A stretch of DNA of 4,752 nt from a virus. Taxonomy: Duplodnaviria; Heunggongvirae; Uroviricota; Caudoviricetes. Positions 1 to 4,752 of this stretch are shown one piece after another. The notes beneath the pieces are model-generated. The model was not told where the DNA came from. It saw nothing but the letters and a program-made list of their open reading frames with translations, and made no database searches. The position numbers and the translations under genes were made by a program. How positions within the stretch are numbered: the stretch's first letter is position 1; the number at the start of each line of letters is the position of its first letter. The stretch lies in the IMG/VR virus record IMGVR_UViG_2579778921_000002; one strand, 5' to 3'.

Positions 1-573
1 TTCTGGCATGTTTGCCGCAGGTCTGATCTTGTATATTGCAGTCAAACCAGACGTACATCTTGACCATATTCTTTTCGGCGACATGCTCGGGGTAACCATC
101 GGCGATATAATCCAGACGGTGATTATTGCCGGGCTGGTTACACTTGTTATTAGCGTAAAATGGCGGGATTTTTTGCTGTTCAGCTTTGATTATCAACAGG
201 CGCAGGCAAGCGGTTTGTAAGCGGTTTGCATACGAGATGTCTGCATTATGGGCTGCTGTGCATGGTCTCTCTGACCATTGTGGCGACGCTGAAAGCGGTA
301 GGTATCATTCTCTCCATTTCTCTGCTCATTGCGCCTGGCGCCATTGCGGTACTCCTGACACAACGCTTTCATATTGCGCTCCTACTGGCGATTGGCATAT
401 CGGTAATAGTGTCAATGACTGGTGTCTGGTTGTCCTTTTTTATCGACAGTGCACCAGCTCCGACGATTGTCGTCTTATTCGCGGTTGTGTTCATCATGAC
501 GTTCACCGTTACCAGCATCAACGCACGCACAAAGGGAAACACCCATACACAGGATTTGTCATCACCCAATTAG
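1..573 (+). pseudogene. sitD: 3' portion of an ABC-3 family metal (Mn/Fe-type) ABC transporter permease gene, SitD/YfeD/MntB-like, continuing upstream of the window. The reading frame is interrupted by an 11-bp insertion at 218-228: the upstream part is in frame 2 (2..220, ending at TAA 218-220) and the downstream part in frame 1 (229..573).
   Basis: The frame-2 translation (…LFGDMLGVTIGDIIQTVIIAGLVTLVISV…FDYQQAQASGL) and frame-1 translation (HTRCLHYGLLCMVSLTIVATLKAVGIILSISLLIAPGAIAVLLTQRF…) are both strongly hydrophobic, multi-helix and typical of ABC-3 permease C-terminal halves. Removing nt 218-228 joins them into one continuous protein. The symbol is a best guess from family resemblance and context, not a confirmed identity. 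Confidence 0.6.
208..228 (+). repeat. Imperfect tandem duplication: aagcggtttg (208-217), T (218), aagcggtttg (219-228). It is the cause of the frameshift and premature stop in the permease gene.
   Basis: Direct reading of the sequence; T218 with A219-A220 forms TAA in the upstream reading frame. Confidence 0.85.
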
Positions 574-924: not shown

Positions 925-1218
925 TCACCCACGATTAACCAACAGCCAGACCAGCAGACACGCCACCACCGGCACAGCAAAATCCATCAGGCTTGCCACA
1001 TCCCATGCACGTGTATCAAAACCGCCCCACCACGGCATATTCATTCGCTTGCCATGCCCGAACATTTCGATCCAGCGATATTCTGCCTGGGTGTGTTCAC
1101 GCGCAATGAAGAACGTACAACCGGCTATCGCCCCGTAAGCCCAGTTCCCGGTAAAAAGACCAATCAGTAGCTGCGCAGCCACAGCACAAAGCGCATGAAG
1201 GAAAGGTGTTATATCCAT
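925..1218 (-). CDS. Hypothetical small membrane protein of 97 aa with two hydrophobic segments (N-terminal ALCAVAAQLLIGLF and C-terminal FAVPVVACLLVWLLV). Possibly a prophage cargo (moron) gene.
   Basis: ATG at 1216-1218 is preceded on the minus strand by a strong Shine-Dalgarno, GAAGGAGGAG (plus-strand 1221-1230), at good spacing. The ORF is uninterrupted and the hydrophobic segments are flanked by charged residues. The overlapping plus-strand ORFs have implausible composition. Confidence 0.6.
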   Translation of the reverse strand: MDITPFLHALCAVAAQLLIGLFTGNWAYGAIAGCTFFIAREHTQAEYRWIEMFGHGKRMNMPWWGGFDTRAWDVASLMDFAVPVVACLLVWLLVNRG

Positions 1219-1239
1219 TACTCCTCCTTCATCCTACCC

Positions 1240-1262
1240 AATAAAACGGGGCGCTCGGCCCC
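1240..1262 (-). terminator. Putative Rho-independent terminator for the minus-strand tail-fibre operon. On the minus strand it reads GGGGC-CGAGC-GCCCC followed by GTTTTATT.
   Basis: 5-bp all-GC stem at plus 1248-1252 and 1258-1262 with a 5-nt loop and a U-rich tract, located 7 nt downstream of the orf346 stop (1269-1271). Confidence 0.5.
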
Positions 1263-1268
1263 TTAATA

Positions 1269-2309
1269 TTATTTAGACGCAAGCGCCGCCTCAATTACAG
1301 ATAATCTTTGTCTTAATTCTGCGTTTTCTTCTTCCAGTGCTGTTATTCTGTCGTCTGACTCTCTGGCTACCTGAACAAGCAAGCCAGTAACACCAGAATA
1401 ATCTACTGTGTAATAACGTTCACCTTCTTCACCTTCCGATCCGCTCGCACCGTCCTGATATTTCATTGCGGAACCTACAACTTCTGGGATTGCTTCCAGA
1501 GCTTCCTGTGCAATGACACCAGCATAGGGCATACCGTTTTCTTTAAGCGTGTATGTATAGCCGTTCATTTTACGGATGCGGTCGGTTGCATTATCGATCA
1601 CCTGAATGTTGTCTTTCAGATCCCGGTCGGAATGCTGGTTAAATGCGGTGGCATGACATGCACCATTAACGCTTAACATATAGGTGTTATCGGTATTTTT
1701 CTGCGCATAGAACATATAAGCGCCACCATCAACACCGACTTCATAAACAACAGGACGGCTGGAATTTCCCCATAATAACGTCGACACACCAGAATACGCC
1801 GTACCTTGCGTGTTTAGTGTCATGGTCGACCCGTGATTAGCATATTTGATCTGCAATGAGTCTGTATTATCAAACTTAATAAGCGCGTTACTTCCCCGCA
1901 CACCATACGACATGAGACAGTTCCCCATCTTAAGGTAACCATCACTGCCTGGAAAAATTAAAGTTCCTCCGTAAAGATCACTAAAGTCCCAAAAGATACC
2001 TTTTGTCCCGTTATGTGTGACGATCCTCGTCATTGTATCTTTAGTACCATCAATATTTTTTCTGGTATATATGTCACTATAAGCGTTTTCCGTTTCACCA
2101 GTCTTATTTGACAAATGCAGCTTACCGCTGAATATAGTTCCAGTTGTTGGCAATGTTTTTTGATCATAGATTACATTGCAATAACCATTCCATGTTGTTT
2201 TATTGTCTACATAAGATTTTGTTGCGTAGCTTCCTTGATCGTTTTTTAATTTGCTAACGTCGGATTTTAGCGTTTTGATGTCATCAGGAATTACTGTCGA
2301 TGTAGCCAT
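1269..2309 (-). CDS. Phage tail fibre / receptor-binding-type protein of 346 aa. The N-terminal ~226 aa is a Gly/Thr/Asn/Tyr-rich, probably beta-rich domain. The C-terminal ~120 aa resembles the intramolecular chaperone auto-processing domain (Peptidase S74-like) of phage fibres and tailspikes.
   Basis: The C-terminal segment begins HSDRDLKDNIQVIDNATDRIRKMNGYTYTLKENGMPYAGVIAQEALEAIPEVV and ends in a predicted coiled coil (RITALEEENAELRQRLSVIEAALASK), matching the S-D-x-R-x-K-x-N-I signature of intramolecular chaperone domains. A GAGGAAG Shine-Dalgarno overlaps the stop of the upstream 93-aa ORF. Confidence 0.8.
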   Translation of the reverse strand: MATSTVIPDDIKTLKSDVSKLKNDQGSYATKSYVDNKTTWNGYCNVIYDQKTLPTTGTIFSGKLHLSNKTGETENAYSDIYTRKNIDGTKDTMTRIVTHNGTKGIFWDFSDLYGGTLIFPGSDGYLKMGNCLMSYGVRGSNALIKFDNTDSLQIKYANHGSTMTLNTQGTAYSGVSTLLWGNSSRPVVYEVGVDGGAYMFYAQKNTDNTYMLSVNGACHATAFNQHSDRDLKDNIQVIDNATDRIRKMNGYTYTLKENGMPYAGVIAQEALEAIPEVVGSAMKYQDGASGSEGEEGERYYTVDYSGVTGLLVQVARESDDRITALEEENAELRQRLSVIEAALASK

Positions 2310-2318
2310 TTTTCTTCC

Positions 2319-2600
2319 TCACATCCAGCCACGAAGTTGATGCTCAACAGCAACCACGTATTCATCGAATAATGACGATATTTGCGAATCATTAATGATG
2401 CGCACGTTTACAAAATATCCGTCTTCCTTAACACATACCGGTTCGCCATCTTCAGTCAGTTCTCCGGTTTCTTTGTACACGTTACCTATCACGTCGATAA
2501 GAATATCATCCTGCATCGACTCGTCATCATAATAGCCAATACTCTCCATAAAGGCCGAAAAGTCGGCCCTGTCTTCAAATTTGAGTGTTAAATCTTTCAT
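2319..2600 (-). CDS. Hypothetical small, highly acidic protein of 93 aa (22 Asp+Glu against 7 Lys+Arg by direct count). Translationally coupled to stf; possibly a fibre assembly or adaptor factor, or an acidic anti-defence-type protein.
   Basis: Its ATG (2598-2600) overlaps the stf stop (2600-2602) as TAATG on the minus strand. The ORF is uninterrupted with coding-like composition. No family was recognised from memory. Confidence 0.7.
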   Translation of the reverse strand: MKDLTLKFEDRADFSAFMESIGYYDDESMQDDILIDVIGNVYKETGELTEDGEPVCVKEDGYFVNVRIINDSQISSLFDEYVVAVEHQLRGWM

Positions 2601-4752
2601 TAGATTGACTCCCCCACCTGAGCATCAGTCAATGCCTTGTGCCATATTCTGAAATTCCTGACATGACCAAATAAATGACGTAACCCGGCTGTAGTCTGGC
2701 CTCCAATACGGATAATTGCGGTGTTCTGAATACAGGACCATGTGGTTTTTGTTTCGCTGGATATATGCCCGTTACTTACTGAGCACGTAGACTGCTCTGA
2801 CTTTACACGCATCCCCATAACCATTTTTTCAAGCGATGCGTTTTCGTTTACCCGTCTGTTAGCCAAACCTATATCACAATAAGGAAATCCGTCGTAATCT
2901 GTTCCTCCAATATCGCAATAAGGAAATCCGTCGTAATCTGTTGAACGACCGAAGCCAAGAATAATAGCCGCTCCGGTTTGATGACCGCCGGTATCAAAAA
3001 CACGTGGCGCTGCATTTGGCGTTTTATACCAGTTCTTATGTACCTCACAAAGAACCGTAAAAGGAAGATTATAAAGATTATTCTTAATTGGAACTGTAAC
3101 TATATCGCTTGCGCGGGTCGCCGCCGTCGCTCCTGATATAATAAAAGATGATACACAAGGCCCATCTTCTACTTGTGGGGTGGCCAGATAAATATAGTCA
3201 CCAGATACGGTTGCCCCGCTCTGCTTAGGAGAATACTGTATCTGAGAGCCTATTTTTAACTCCCCATCAATTGCCTGAATTGTTGCCTCTGCAAAAATCC
3301 ATCCGGTAGCTTCGTCCTTTCTGACTCTCGCTGTAATCCTTGAGGCAGCACCGCCTGTCATATTAATTTCAAGCGTTTGTGTATCAATATACGCATCACC
3401 AAGAAAAGTTGTTGCGCTACCGTCATATTTATCAAACCGGATACGCAACCTTACCTGCAGTTCTGTTTTAAAACGACATGAGGTTGTCACGTGTTTATTA
3501 TCGCCTGAGACATCAACTGACTTTGTTGCAGCAATTGATGCCATATTAATGGCTGAGGTTTGCCCAATCAGAGAATCGTTGCAGACAAACTTTCCATAGG
3601 TAAAACCAAAATTATCCGTCCCTGTTTCGGGCACATCCATATTTGACGATCGCCCCCAACTGGCAGGGCTTTCCGAATTGAGCATGTAGTTTGTTCTTTG
3701 CCCCTCAATAAGCAGGCCATCACGTTCAAATCGTGGCTCGTCAATGGCAGCCTCTGTCAGCACACCAGATTTGTTAATATAGGTTGCTTTCGATGCACGT
3801 TTAAACTTAACAATCTTGTCGCCAGGCATCGTTATTTCATCGTCACCAATAACAATTTTTTTATATGACGGCGAAAAGCCCGTAATCATATCCAGCGAAT
3901 CGTTAAATGGTATCCACACATCAGGCAGCGGCTGTAAGACATATTTATACGGCTCCGCAGCCTGGCTTGCGTACTCTCTGGCTGCATCTTCGCTTGCTTT
4001 AGCTGCCGTCTGGCTTGCTGCCGATGCTTTCGCTGAGTTCGCAGCCGCTGTTTCGCTCACCTTTGCGTTGGTTTCACTGGTTTTTGCTGCTTTTTGACTG
4101 TTAGCTGATGCAGTGGCAGAAGCAGCCGCCGCGCTTGCAGAACTGGCTGCGGCACTCTCGCTTTGAGCCGCTGCATCCTGACTGCTTTTCGCCGCAGTTT
4201 CACTGGCTTTGGCATTCGTTTCGCTGGTCTTCGCTGCCGTCTGGCTGGACTTTGCGTTAGTTTCACTCGTCTTCGCAGCTTTCTGGCTGTTAGCCGCAGC
4301 AGTTGCTGATCCAGCTGCTGAAGTCGCAGAACCGGCTGCCGCGCTCTCGCTTTGGGCTGCTGCAACCTGGCTGTTTTTTGCCGCAGTTTCACTGGCTTTA
4401 GCATTCGTTTCGCTGGTTTTCGCTGCCGTCTGGCTGGACTTTGCGTTGGTTTCGCTCGTCTTTGCGGCTGTCTCACTGTTTTTCGCGTTGGTTTCTGATT
4501 TTTTGGCTGCTGTCGCGGAGTTTGCCGATGCAGTCTGTGAGGTCGCTGCCGCCTGTGCGCTGTTAGCTGCATTCGTTTCTGAGGTTTTCGCCGCGTTCTT
4601 CGATGATGCCGCTGCAGTTTCGGATTTCTTTGCCGCCGCTGCGCTCTGAGAGGCGGCTTCAGCGTTGCGTGCCGCTTCTTCCACCATTTCCTCAAAACGA
4701 CGCAATGCCTCCGGCATGACATCATCTTCCGTCATGGCACCGAGAAAATCAT
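2600..4752 (-). CDS. stf: Lambda Stf-type side tail fibre protein, 5'-partial (the N-terminus lies beyond the window end). It has a conserved Stf segment, an Ala/Ser/Thr-rich heptad-repeat shaft, and a divergent C-terminal region of about 450 aa ending in a concanavalin A-like (LamG-type) lectin-like domain.
   Basis: The frame stays open to the window edge (…DFLGA-MTEDDVMPEALRRFEEMVEEAARNA), which matches the lambda Stf segment …DFLCAMTEDD…LRR…MVEE…ARNA as recalled from memory. It is followed by about 235 aa of KTSETNA-type repeats. The C-terminus, LRHLFGHVRNFRIWHKALTDAQV, resembles the terminal strand motif of LamG/ConA-like domains. Confidence 0.9.
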   Translation of the reverse strand, partial: DFLGAMTEDDVMPEALRRFEEMVEEAARNAEAASQSAAAAKKSETAAASSKNAAKTSETNAANSAQAAATSQTASANSATAAKKSETNAKNSETAAKTSETNAKSSQTAAKTSETNAKASETAAKNSQVAAAQSESAAAGSATSAAGSATAAANSQKAAKTSETNAKSSQTAAKTSETNAKASETAAKSSQDAAAQSESAAASSASAAAASATASANSQKAAKTSETNAKVSETAAANSAKASAASQTAAKASEDAAREYASQAAEPYKYVLQPLPDVWIPFNDSLDMITGFSPSYKKIVIGDDEITMPGDKIVKFKRASKATYINKSGVLTEAAIDEPRFERDGLLIEGQRTNYMLNSESPASWGRSSNMDVPETGTDNFGFTYGKFVCNDSLIGQTSAINMASIAATKSVDVSGDNKHVTTSCRFKTELQVRLRIRFDKYDGSATTFLGDAYIDTQTLEINMTGGAASRITARVRKDEATGWIFAEATIQAIDGELKIGSQIQYSPKQSGATVSGDYIYLATPQVEDGPCVSSFIISGATAATRASDIVTVPIKNNLYNLPFTVLCEVHKNWYKTPNAAPRVFDTGGHQTGAAIILGFGRSTDYDGFPYCDIGGTDYDGFPYCDIGLANRRVNENASLEKMVMGMRVKSEQSTCSVSNGHISSETKTTWSCIQNTAIIRIGGQTTAGLRHLFGHVRNFRIWHKALTDAQVGESI
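2867..2948 (-). repeat. In-frame tandem duplication of about 39 bp inside the stf C-terminal domain, encoding (S/G)TDYDGFPYCDIG twice.
   Basis: Plus-strand 2871-2909 and 2910-2948 share 33 consecutive positions with one mismatch (a/g), which is synonymous (TGT/TGC Cys) on the coding strand. Confidence 0.9.
3956..4663 (-). repeat. Ala/Ser/Thr-rich repeat region of stf with 21-bp (7-aa) periodicity. It contains a higher-order 189-bp (63-aa) tandem duplication (two full units at about 4097..4474, plus a partial third toward 4040).
   Basis: The anchor gccgcagtttcactggcttt occurs at 4191 and 4380 (period 189 bp) with about 85-90% identity over the surrounding unit. The protein shows KAAKTSETNAKSSQTAAKTSETNAKASETAAK(N/S)SQ… twice. 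Confidence 0.85.

What the first reader, a model, noticed from the sequence alone, without database searches (positions are those of the whole stretch)
2867..2948. Near-perfect 39-bp in-frame tandem duplication inside the putative lectin domain
Two adjacent copies share 33 consecutive positions with one mismatch, and that mismatch is a synonymous Cys codon change. The result is (S/G)TDYDGFPYCDIG repeated twice, adding a 13-aa Cys-containing loop or strand copy to the receptor-binding domain. The low divergence implies a recent event. It could alter receptor specificity or be a site of length variation between strains.
Basis: seen in the sequence. Interest (0 to 1): 0.45.

Follow-up and report, generated by a model that had tools for sequence, protein, structure and literature searches.

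The report
Chimeric 39-bp repeat, probably assembly artefact
The 39-bp in-frame repeat in this prophage tail-fibre gene is real in the sequence, but its second copy comes from a different gene copy elsewhere in the genome and it occurs in no other public sequence, so it is most likely an assembly error and not a recent duplication that changes host range.

Summary
Window 2903-2941 and 2864-2902 (minus strand) are two adjacent 39-nt units inside a lambda-Stf-like side tail fibre gene. They encode TDYDGFPYCDIGG followed by TDYDGFPYCDIGL.

The repeat is not a simple duplication. All six nucleotide differences lie in the last 13 nt of the second unit. All six match a second natural allele ("Y") of the same gene, which sits in another prophage of the same E. 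coli lineage. The first unit and both flanks are the resident "X" allele.

All 120 listed protein homologues have a single copy of the motif or of its equivalent stretch, and the close DNA relatives I inspected are 39 nt shorter at this site. The two-copy junction is absent from 5,426 complete E. coli genomes, three phage, plasmid and viral-contig collections, 185,579 species-representative genomes and JGI metagenomes. An exact look-up in 15 billion proteins also failed.

The whole window differs from E. coli 13TMH22 by zero substitutions and only three insertions of 11, 8 and 39 nt. Each insertion carries paralogue-type sequence from plasmid sitD or the Y prophage, and the 11-nt one frameshifts sitD.

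My best reading (about 0.65) is an assembly or consensus artefact caused by cross-talk between gene copies. The main rival (about 0.25) is a genuine insertion templated by the paralogue, in a gene that in the nearest genome lies in a defective Rac-type prophage. Interest is low.

The parts
2903..2941 (-). Resident 39-nt unit, X-type allele: ACA GAT TAC GAC GGA TTT CCT TAT TGC GAT ATT GGA GGA (TDYDGFPYCDIGG).
   Evidence: It is identical to the single copy in E. coli 7/2, phage Tritos and E. coli 13TMH22.
2864..2902 (-). Extra 39-nt unit, absent from all relatives examined: ACA GAT TAC GAC GGA TTT CCT TAT TGT GAT ATA GGT TTG (TDYDGFPYCDIGL).
   Evidence: It forms the gap block in the alignment with 13TMH22 and with E. 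coli 7/2 and Tritos. The junction probe and the degenerate junction pattern found nothing in any collection. The pattern does find the window itself, which serves as a positive control.
2864..2878 (-). Y-allele-diagnostic tail of the extra unit: TGT GAT ATA GGT TTG, against the X-type TGC GAT ATT GGA GGA.
   Evidence: A 64-nt exact match that includes this stretch occurs as the single copy in 144 E. coli records (174 genomes match at 90% or more), among them EC958 and the second prophage of 13TMH22.
2600..4752 (-). Lambda-Stf-like side tail fibre gene, a homologue of Rac stfR. Its 5' end runs off the window. Reconstructed full lengths are 804 aa with the extra unit and 791 aa without it.
   Evidence: Pfam PF08400 N-terminal domain, NCBIfam NF048003 at aa 347-547 of the 716-aa fragment, phrog_1419 tail protein. 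The reading frame stays open to the window end.
2319..2600 (-). 93-aa ORF immediately downstream of stf (phrog_1361, function unknown).
1269..2309 (-). 346-aa second tail fibre protein with a C-terminal Peptidase_S74 intramolecular chaperone domain.
925..1218 (-). 97-aa ORF (phrog_1443, function unknown).
1220..1227 (-). Second insertion relative to 13TMH22. The 8 nt read GGAGGAGT on the minus strand, are identical to the Y-prophage sequence at the homologous spot, and create an SD-like AGGAGG just before the ATG of the 97-aa ORF.
   Evidence: No complete E. coli genome carries this composite; the best full-length match is 89%.
206..217 (+). Third insertion relative to 13TMH22. The 11 nt (CAAGCGGTTTG) sit directly before the resident TAAGCGGTTTG. 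The inserted copy carries the C of the plasmid-borne sitD allele. The insertion shifts the sitD frame and gives a stop at 218-220.
   Evidence: No genome has the tandem form.
1..573 (+). 3' part of chromosomal sitD (iron/manganese ABC transporter permease), disrupted in the window by the 11-nt insertion.

Best explanation
The 39-bp 'tandem duplication' is a chimeric junction. The resident X-type allele segment of the tail-fibre gene is directly followed by the same 39-nt segment in its Y-type form. The Y-type form belongs to a paralogous stf gene in a second prophage of the same E. coli lineage.

It is one of three such events in this 4.75-kb window. Each is a short patch (11, 8 or 39 nt) of paralogue-type sequence inserted next to the retained resident sequence. 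The background is otherwise base-for-base identical to known genomes.

The most economical cause is an error in how the sequence was built: assembly, contig joining, polishing or consensus in a multi-copy region where reads or contigs from the paralogue were spliced in beside the true allele. On this reading there was no biological duplication.

Shown by the data: the composite X+Y structure, its uniqueness, the two sister events, and the presence of the Y donor in the closest genome. Inferred: that the cause is technical. Which program or step produced it is unknown.
For: 1. Composite structure.
- The first 26 nt of the two units are identical. All six differences lie in the last 13 nt of the extra unit and equal the natural Y allele.
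- The chance that six random substitutions reproduce Y is about 4e-10.
- Both flanks are X-type at every X/Y diagnostic site. The window stays X-type at 57 mismatches in the three homologous blocks around these sites; the blastn comparison with the Y locus also lists weaker blocks.

2. Uniqueness.
- The 44-nt junction probe found nothing in 5,426 complete E. coli genomes, 50,697 phage records or 72,556 plasmids.
- A degenerate junction pattern found nothing in GTDB species genomes, IMG/VR or JGI metagenomes, with a positive control on the window.
- The reconstructed 804-aa protein is absent from a 15-billion-protein collection, while the 791-aa one-copy protein is recorded on 472 contigs.
- All 120 listed homologues have a single copy.

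3. Sister events.
- Against E. coli 13TMH22 the window has 0 substitutions in 4,694 nt and exactly three insertions. At least five other genomes score the same as 13TMH22 and several more span the same 4,694 nt.
- The 11-nt insertion carries the plasmid-sitD 'C' and frameshifts sitD.
- The 8-nt insertion equals the Y-prophage sequence. A Y-type SNP 3 nt away was not transferred.
- Neither composite exists in any complete E. coli genome.

4. The Y donor exists in the genome that is otherwise identical to the window. 13TMH22 carries both X (L007) and Y (L008).

5. Junction anatomy, read from the alignments.
- One side of each event is a long run of paralogue identity.
- The other side is a join with only 1 nt of microhomology that returns exactly to the first base at which the paralogues differ. 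This looks like a segment-replacement or concatenation operation and not like slippage.

6. Placement.
- The three events sit at the end of three of the nine longest (63 nt or more) runs of paralogue identity. None of the roughly 80 variants that follow shorter runs has an event. My estimate is P of about 7e-4.

7. Literature.
- Errors, including errors introduced by polishers, concentrate in repeats of bacterial assemblies (PMC8812927).
Against: - No reads are available, so the artefact is inferred and not observed.
- I could not name a specific program whose known behaviour gives exactly 'paralogue allele plus n bases of context, then resident allele'. The duplicated context differs between sites (10 nt and 26 nt), which does not fit a fixed k-1 overlap of a de Bruijn graph. 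A pure de Bruijn contig also cannot contain a junction k-mer that no read has. The spacing of the sites does not fit 500-nt polishing windows.
- The 39-nt insertion is in frame. That is expected one time in three by chance, but it is also what a tolerated real mutation would look like.
- A preference for long runs of identity is equally expected of real homologous recombination.
Confidence: 0.65

Rival explanations
1. A genuine, one-off insertion templated by the paralogue. In a cell carrying both prophages, a replication or repair intermediate in the Rac-type stf (X) switched to the paralogous stf (Y) as template or was joined to a fragment of it. It copied at least the 39 nt and returned by homology in the 68-nt identical stretch downstream. 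The left junction is illegitimate, with 1 nt of microhomology. The result is a real 13-aa insertion in the distal domain of the fibre.
For: - Both alleles co-reside in the closest genome.
- One junction lies in a 68-nt run of identity, enough for RecA- or RecET-type recombination.
- The Rac prophage that holds the gene encodes recET.
- The insertion keeps the reading frame.
Against: - The same unusual event would have to occur three times within 2.7 kb, from two different donors (plasmid sitD and the Y prophage), with no point substitution in 4.7 kb.
- The transferred patches are tiny. A donor SNP 3 nt from the 8-nt insertion was not transferred. Going by general knowledge, this is unlike normal conversion tracts.
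- The non-homologous junctions have only 1 nt of microhomology and land exactly on the first variant base.
- No second isolate carries any of the three events.
Confidence: 0.25
2. A clean 39-bp tandem duplication arose in the X allele first. The 3' end of the second copy was later overwritten by short-patch gene conversion from the Y allele.
For: The first 26 nt of the two units are identical, and the Y-type patch is contiguous with 68 nt of X/Y identity downstream.
Against: - It needs two rare events at one spot, and no intermediate (a clean X+X duplication) exists in any collection. The degenerate junction pattern would have found one.
- It does not explain the two sister insertions.
Confidence: 0.05
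3. One reading: a recent in situ tandem duplication by slipped-strand mispairing, with the few differences arising afterwards as point mutations.
For: The copies are adjacent, in frame and 34/36 identical.
Against: - All six differences cluster in 13 nt and reproduce the Y allele exactly. The chance of this is about 4e-10.
- The rest of the window shows zero substitutions relative to 13TMH22, so six mutations within 13 nt is not credible.
- There is only 1 nt of microhomology at the junction.
Confidence: 0.02

Closest known systems
Lambda Stf / Rac StfR side tail fibre genes of lambdoid prophages (Pfam PF08400 N-terminal domain)
   Same: - The gene has the PF08400 N-terminus.
- It has a long Ala/Ser/Thr-rich repetitive shaft.
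- It lies downstream of J and lom in a Rac-type prophage next to ttcA...sitABCD in the closest genome.
- Phage Tritos annotates its copy as a 'lambda phage stf protein homolog'.
   Different: - The C-terminal half is a different module: an NF048003 'GTA head spike fiber' domain followed by about 170 aa with a weak ConA-like signal.
- No intact tfa chaperone gene follows. Instead there is a 93-aa ORF and a second fibre with an S74 chaperone.
- The 13-aa repeat is found in this window only.
Slipped-strand or unequal-crossover tandem duplications inside coding repeats
   Same: Head-to-tail arrangement, in frame, near-identical units.
   Different: - The second unit is a different natural allele, not a copy of the first.
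- There is essentially no microhomology at the junction.
- There is no polymorphism for copy number in any population sample.
Assembly and polishing errors in repeated (multi-copy) regions of bacterial genomes (Wick & Holt 2022, PMC8812927)
   Same: - All three differences from otherwise identical genomes lie where a paralogue exists and contain paralogue-type sequence.
- The cited paper reports that most residual errors after polishing lie in genomic repeats and that several polishers introduce errors.
   Different: - The errors described there are mostly small substitutions or indels and large deletions.
- A 'paralogue segment placed in tandem with the resident segment' is not a documented signature that I could cite, and no reads were available to confirm it.
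Ectopic gene conversion / mosaicism between prophage tail-fibre alleles
   Same: - Donor and recipient are paralogous stf genes in co-resident prophages.
- Natural alleles are clearly mosaic. Y is about 95-96% identical to X over the last ~500 nt and diverges upstream.
   Different: - Conversion replaces the recipient tract. Here the recipient tract is retained and the donor tract is added.
- Neighbouring donor SNPs are not transferred.

Membership tests
Lambda-Stf-like side tail fibre (PF08400) | N-terminal 'prophage tail fibre N-terminal' domain above Pfam's gathering score | tested here: met
   PF08400 scores 38.4 bits against a cut-off of 26.6. It matches profile positions 93-131 because the window cuts off the gene's 5' end. 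Full-length relatives carry the domain.
Lambda-Stf-like side tail fibre (PF08400) | Position downstream of the tail tip gene J and lom in a lambdoid prophage | tested here: met
   The order gpJ, lom, stf is seen in E. coli 7/2, UTI89, 13TMH22 and phage Tritos.
Lambda-Stf-like side tail fibre (PF08400) | Followed by an intact Tfa tail fibre assembly chaperone gene | tested here: not met
   Only a truncated tfa pseudogene is annotated further downstream. The gene directly downstream is a 93-aa ORF of unknown function.
   The score is 19.1 bits against a cut-off of 27.6 (E = 0.0015). The match covers only the last ~50 residues, profile positions 98-150 of 151, downstream of the repeat.
   Both AlphaFold2 models have pLDDT below 50 from about residue 243 to the C-terminus, which includes the repeat. 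The Foldseek hits are generic beta-sandwiches with TM-scores of 0.33 or less.
Genuine in situ tandem duplication | The second copy derives from the first, so differences should be few and unrelated to other alleles | tested here: not met
   All 6 differences equal the paralogous Y allele and cluster in 13 nt.
Genuine in situ tandem duplication | Copy-number polymorphism, or the same junction, present in related genomes | tested here: not met
   No hits in six DNA collections and none in an exact protein look-up.
Assembly/consensus artefact from paralogue cross-talk | Inserted sequence matches another copy present in the same genome lineage | tested here: met
   The Y allele and the 8-nt patch are both in the second prophage of 13TMH22, L008. 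The 'C' of the 11-nt patch is the common plasmid sitD allele. Whether the source strain carries such a plasmid is unknown.
Assembly/consensus artefact from paralogue cross-talk | Several such events clustered in multi-copy regions, with no ordinary substitutions around them | tested here: met
   Three insertions and no substitutions in 4,694 nt. All three lie at the ends of long runs of paralogue identity.
Assembly/consensus artefact from paralogue cross-talk | No sequencing reads span the novel junction | not testable with these tools
   The source record and its reads could not be identified. The exact protein look-ups failed.
Ectopic gene conversion | A donor tract replaces the recipient tract and carries neighbouring donor SNPs with it | tested here: not met
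   The recipient tract is retained beside the donor tract. A donor SNP 3 nt from the 8-nt patch, and every other X/Y difference in the homologous blocks around the sites, remain recipient-type.

The most novel reading that the evidence does not exclude
The three events are real and reflect a recombination process not yet described: short patches copied from paralogous loci (a second prophage, a plasmid) are inserted next to the resident allele instead of replacing it. The process might depend on the recET genes of the same Rac prophage. In tail-fibre genes this would be a new way to create in-frame repeat expansions in receptor-binding domains from co-resident prophage alleles.
Probability: 0.15. 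Interest if true: 0.55.

Novelty: not a real feature. Interest (0 to 1): 0.12.

Why it matters
If this is an artefact, the value is practical. An in-frame, low-divergence repeat in a receptor-binding domain, which looks biologically meaningful, turns out to be a splice of two paralogous alleles. The same window also holds a false sitD frameshift and a false ribosome-binding-site insertion. Anyone annotating or comparing this assembly would draw wrong conclusions about host range, sitD pseudogenisation and copy-number variation.

If it is real, it would be a single-isolate mutation. In the nearest genome the gene belongs to a defective prophage, so the functional weight would be small. The mechanism, however, would interest people who study recombination between prophages.

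Tried and rejected
- Structure modelling of the one-copy and two-copy C-terminal halves. AlphaFold2 with 82-83 sequences was confident only for residues ~67-242. The region with the repeat has pLDDT below 50 in both models, so nothing can be said about a loop or a strand. The Foldseek search against PDB was uninformative, and the PDB sequence search gave only a weak hit to the RcGTA head spike fibre, upstream of the repeat.
- Looking for a two-copy allele elsewhere. I tried megablast junction probes, a degenerate codon-level junction pattern, 120 cluster-representative homologues and an exact protein look-up. All were negative.
- Finding the source record. I looked up the reconstructed 804-aa Stf and the truncated 171-aa SitD, and neither is in the collection. 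The C-terminal SitD fragments are in the collection but are not diagnostic.
- De Bruijn unitigs joined without trimming a k-1 overlap. Rejected because the duplicated context is 10 nt at one site and 26 nt at the other, and because the junction k-mer would not exist in any read.
- Duplications at 500-nt polishing-window boundaries. Rejected because the sites are about 1,003 and 1,636 nt apart in reference coordinates.
- An ancient, fixed two-copy feature. Rejected because homologues down to 67% identity have a single copy.
- Checking for a sitD-bearing plasmid in 13TMH22. The one plasmid I opened (36 kb) looks phage-like. I read only its first 2 kb and did not pursue this.
Full report
**Observation**

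The window contains one strong direct repeat at the stated place: 2868-2903 and 2907-2942, 36 nt, 34/36 identical, spacing 39. It lies on the minus strand inside a long ORF (2600 to beyond the window end). It is in frame and reads ...GFGR-S-TDYDGFPYCDIG-G-TDYDGFPYCDIG-L-ANRR....

In codon phase the two units are 2903-2941 (first in the protein) and 2864-2902 (second). They differ at six nucleotides, all within the last 13 nt:
- TGC/TGT, ATT/ATA and GGA/GGT, all synonymous;
- GGA/TTG, which changes Gly to Leu.

**What the gene is**

- The ORF has the Pfam 'prophage tail fibre N-terminal' domain (PF08400, 38.4 bits).
- It has a repetitive Ala/Ser/Thr-rich shaft (TRF period 189 at 4061-4480).
- It has an NCBIfam 'GTA head spike fiber' domain at aa 347-547 of the 716-aa fragment.
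- It matches phrog_1419, a tail protein family.
- The repeat lies at aa 603-628, in the last ~170 residues. The only family signal there is a sub-threshold Laminin_G_3 (ConA-like) match to the final ~50 residues (19.1 bits against a cut-off of 27.6).
- Downstream on the same strand are a 93-aa ORF, a 346-aa fibre with a Peptidase_S74 chaperone domain, and a 97-aa ORF. The 3' part of sitD lies on the other strand.

In the closest genome this is the right end of a Rac-type prophage (intR, recET, kilR, sieB, trkG). That prophage has lost its head genes and most tail genes, and J is truncated. The gene is therefore a homologue of stfR in a defective prophage.

**Comparison with relatives**

- Among 5,426 complete E. 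coli genomes, 673 records cover at least 80% of the 251 nt around the repeat. The 60 best listed all span 212 nt, 39 nt fewer than the query, and no record reaches 99% identity.
- The six closest phage records (HannyBb, Tritos, PhiR63_1, 2G7b in two records, ESCO3) span 762 nt for the 801-nt query, again 39 nt fewer.
- A 44-nt probe across the junction finds nothing in the E. coli, phage or plasmid collections.
- A degenerate codon-level junction pattern finds nothing in 185,579 species genomes, IMG/VR or JGI metagenomes, although it does find the window.
- Of 120 cluster-representative protein homologues (67-96% identical), 91 have exactly one PYCD motif. Of the other 29, 9 have one copy of a variant motif and 20 belong to a different sequence class with an unrelated stretch of similar length at that position.
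- The reconstructed 804-aa two-copy protein is not among 15 billion proteins. The 791-aa one-copy protein is recorded on 472 contigs.

The two-copy state is therefore derived and, as far as public data go, unique to this window.

**The second copy is a different allele**

The alignment with single-copy relatives shows two natural allele types at this spot:
- X: TGC GAT ATT GGA GGA (CDIGG), found in E. coli 7/2, Tritos and the sitD-side prophage of 13TMH22.
- Y: TGT GAT ATA GGT TTG (CDIGL), found as a 64-nt exact match in 144 records, including EC958, JJ1886, S88 and the second, Qin-like prophage of 13TMH22.

The window has the X unit followed by a unit whose variable tail is exactly Y. The flanks on both sides are X at every diagnostic site. 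Six random substitutions would reproduce Y with a probability of about 4e-10.

**The decisive context**

Aligned with E. coli 13TMH22, the whole window shows no substitution in 4,694 nt and only three differences, all insertions in the window:
- 11 nt at 206-216;
- 8 nt at 1220-1227;
- 39 nt at 2864-2902.

At least five other genomes score the same as 13TMH22, and several more span the same 4,694 nt.

The 11-nt insertion puts CAAGCGGTTTG directly before the resident TAAGCGGTTTG in sitD. The C is the allele of the plasmid-borne sitD paralogue (993 plasmid places; alignment). All other plasmid-type SNPs are absent. The insertion shifts the frame and truncates SitD.

The 8-nt insertion (GGAGGAGT on the minus strand) is the sequence that the Y prophage has at the homologous position. 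A Y-type SNP 3 nt away was not taken over.

Neither composite exists in any complete E. coli genome. The window keeps the resident state at 57 other X/Y differences in the three homologous blocks around these sites and at 33 chromosome/plasmid differences.

At sites 1 and 3 the architecture is the same on the plus strand. A long run of paralogue identity is followed by the paralogue's variant, then 10 or 26 nt of shared context, and then a join with only 1 nt of microhomology that returns exactly to the first base where the paralogues differ.

The three events sit at the end of three of the nine longest runs of identity (63 nt or more). They follow none of the roughly 80 variants that come after shorter runs.

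**Interpretation**

There are three insertions of paralogue-type patches and no point change. They come from two different donor loci, one of them destroys a conserved gene, and none has been seen in any other isolate. Ordinary evolution does not produce this pattern. A clean duplication followed by point mutation is excluded.

Real ectopic conversion would replace the resident tract and carry neighbouring donor SNPs with it. It does neither here.

The most economical explanation is a technical one. The sequence was built in a multi-copy region with reads or contigs of the paralogues spliced in beside the true allele. Repeats are where residual and introduced errors concentrate in bacterial assemblies (PMC8812927).

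I could not identify the program or step responsible. A fixed k-1 overlap and 500-nt polishing windows do not fit, and I had no reads. I therefore hold this at about 0.65.

The main rival, at about 0.25, is a genuine insertion templated by the paralogue. Both donor and recipient co-reside in the closest genome, one junction lies in 68 nt of identity, and recET is in the same prophage. It would have to have happened three times.

**Function**

The effect of a 13-aa repeat on the fibre could not be assessed. Both AlphaFold2 models are below pLDDT 50 over the last ~170 residues. The DGFPYCDIGG stretch is nearly invariant among homologues, so a second copy could easily be disruptive.

Lateral tail fibres of related siphoviruses are thought to bind surface glycans such as O-antigen (PMC8594841). 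The receptor of this module is not known. In the nearest genome the gene belongs to a prophage that cannot make virions on its own.

**Verdict**

The repeat is derived and single-lineage, but it is not an in situ duplication, it is not a polymorphic site, and a change in specificity is untested.
- Most likely it is not a real biological feature.
- Interest is low.

Noticed in passing
window 206-228 (+), inside sitD (1-573): An 11-nt imperfect tandem repeat (CAAGCGGTTTG then TAAGCGGTTTG) is absent from all complete E. coli genomes. It shifts the sitD frame and gives a stop at 218-220, so SitD is truncated to 171 aa. The extra copy carries the plasmid-type sitD allele.
   Followed up: yes
window 1220-1227 (minus strand GGAGGAGT): An 8-nt insertion relative to otherwise identical genomes creates an AGGAGG Shine-Dalgarno-like site just upstream of the ATG (1218) of the 97-aa ORF. 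It is identical to the sequence of the paralogous (Y, Qin-like) prophage at that spot. The composite is unique to the window.
   Followed up: yes
window 4061-4480 (and 4203-4495): The shaft part of the stf gene is built of long in-frame repeats (period 189 nt, 2.2 copies, 83% matches, with 42- and 21-nt sub-periods) that encode AAKTSETNAK-like Ala/Ser/Thr-rich units. In E. coli 7/2 RefSeq annotates the stf gene as two pieces, an N-terminal pseudogene fragment and a separate C-terminal CDS, with about 760 nt unannotated between them.
   Followed up: partly
window 925-2600 (-); L007, L001, L002: The stf gene is not followed by an intact tfa chaperone gene. Instead there is a 93-aa ORF (phrog_1361), a 346-aa second fibre with a Peptidase_S74 intramolecular chaperone, a 97-aa ORF (phrog_1443) and, in the relatives 13TMH22 and UTI89, a tfa remnant. 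This could be a two-protein or branched lateral fibre like those described for T5-like phages such as DT57C (paper listed). I did not test this.
   Followed up: no
window 2600-3120 (-); phage hits H47-H56: The last ~500 nt of stf are 80-88% identical to lateral tail fibre genes of unrelated virulent phages: the BASEL phages VogelGryff and KurtStettler, Dru_SM1, and large (~110-kb) Salmonella phages. This indicates horizontal exchange of the distal module.
   Followed up: no
phage collection hits H55 (OR848352.1) and H57 (MG065692.1): Records labelled 'Listeria phage LM 4-14-1' and 'Campylobacter phage C13' carry DNA about 80% identical to this E. coli tail-fibre gene. The host labels look doubtful, perhaps through contamination or mislabelling.
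   Followed up: no
window ~1240-1262 (-): A G+C-rich hairpin followed by a T run (GGGGCCGAGCGCCCCGTTTTATT) lies between the 346-aa fibre gene and the 97-aa ORF and looks like an intrinsic terminator. I saw it in the sequence and did not run the terminator scan.
   Followed up: no
L011 (E. coli 13TMH22 4243000-4275000): In the closest genome the prophage is a Rac-type remnant (intR, xisR, recET, racC, kilR, sieB, ydaT, trkG) at ttcA. Its tail-fibre end abuts sitABCD. J is truncated and the head genes are missing.
   Followed up: partly
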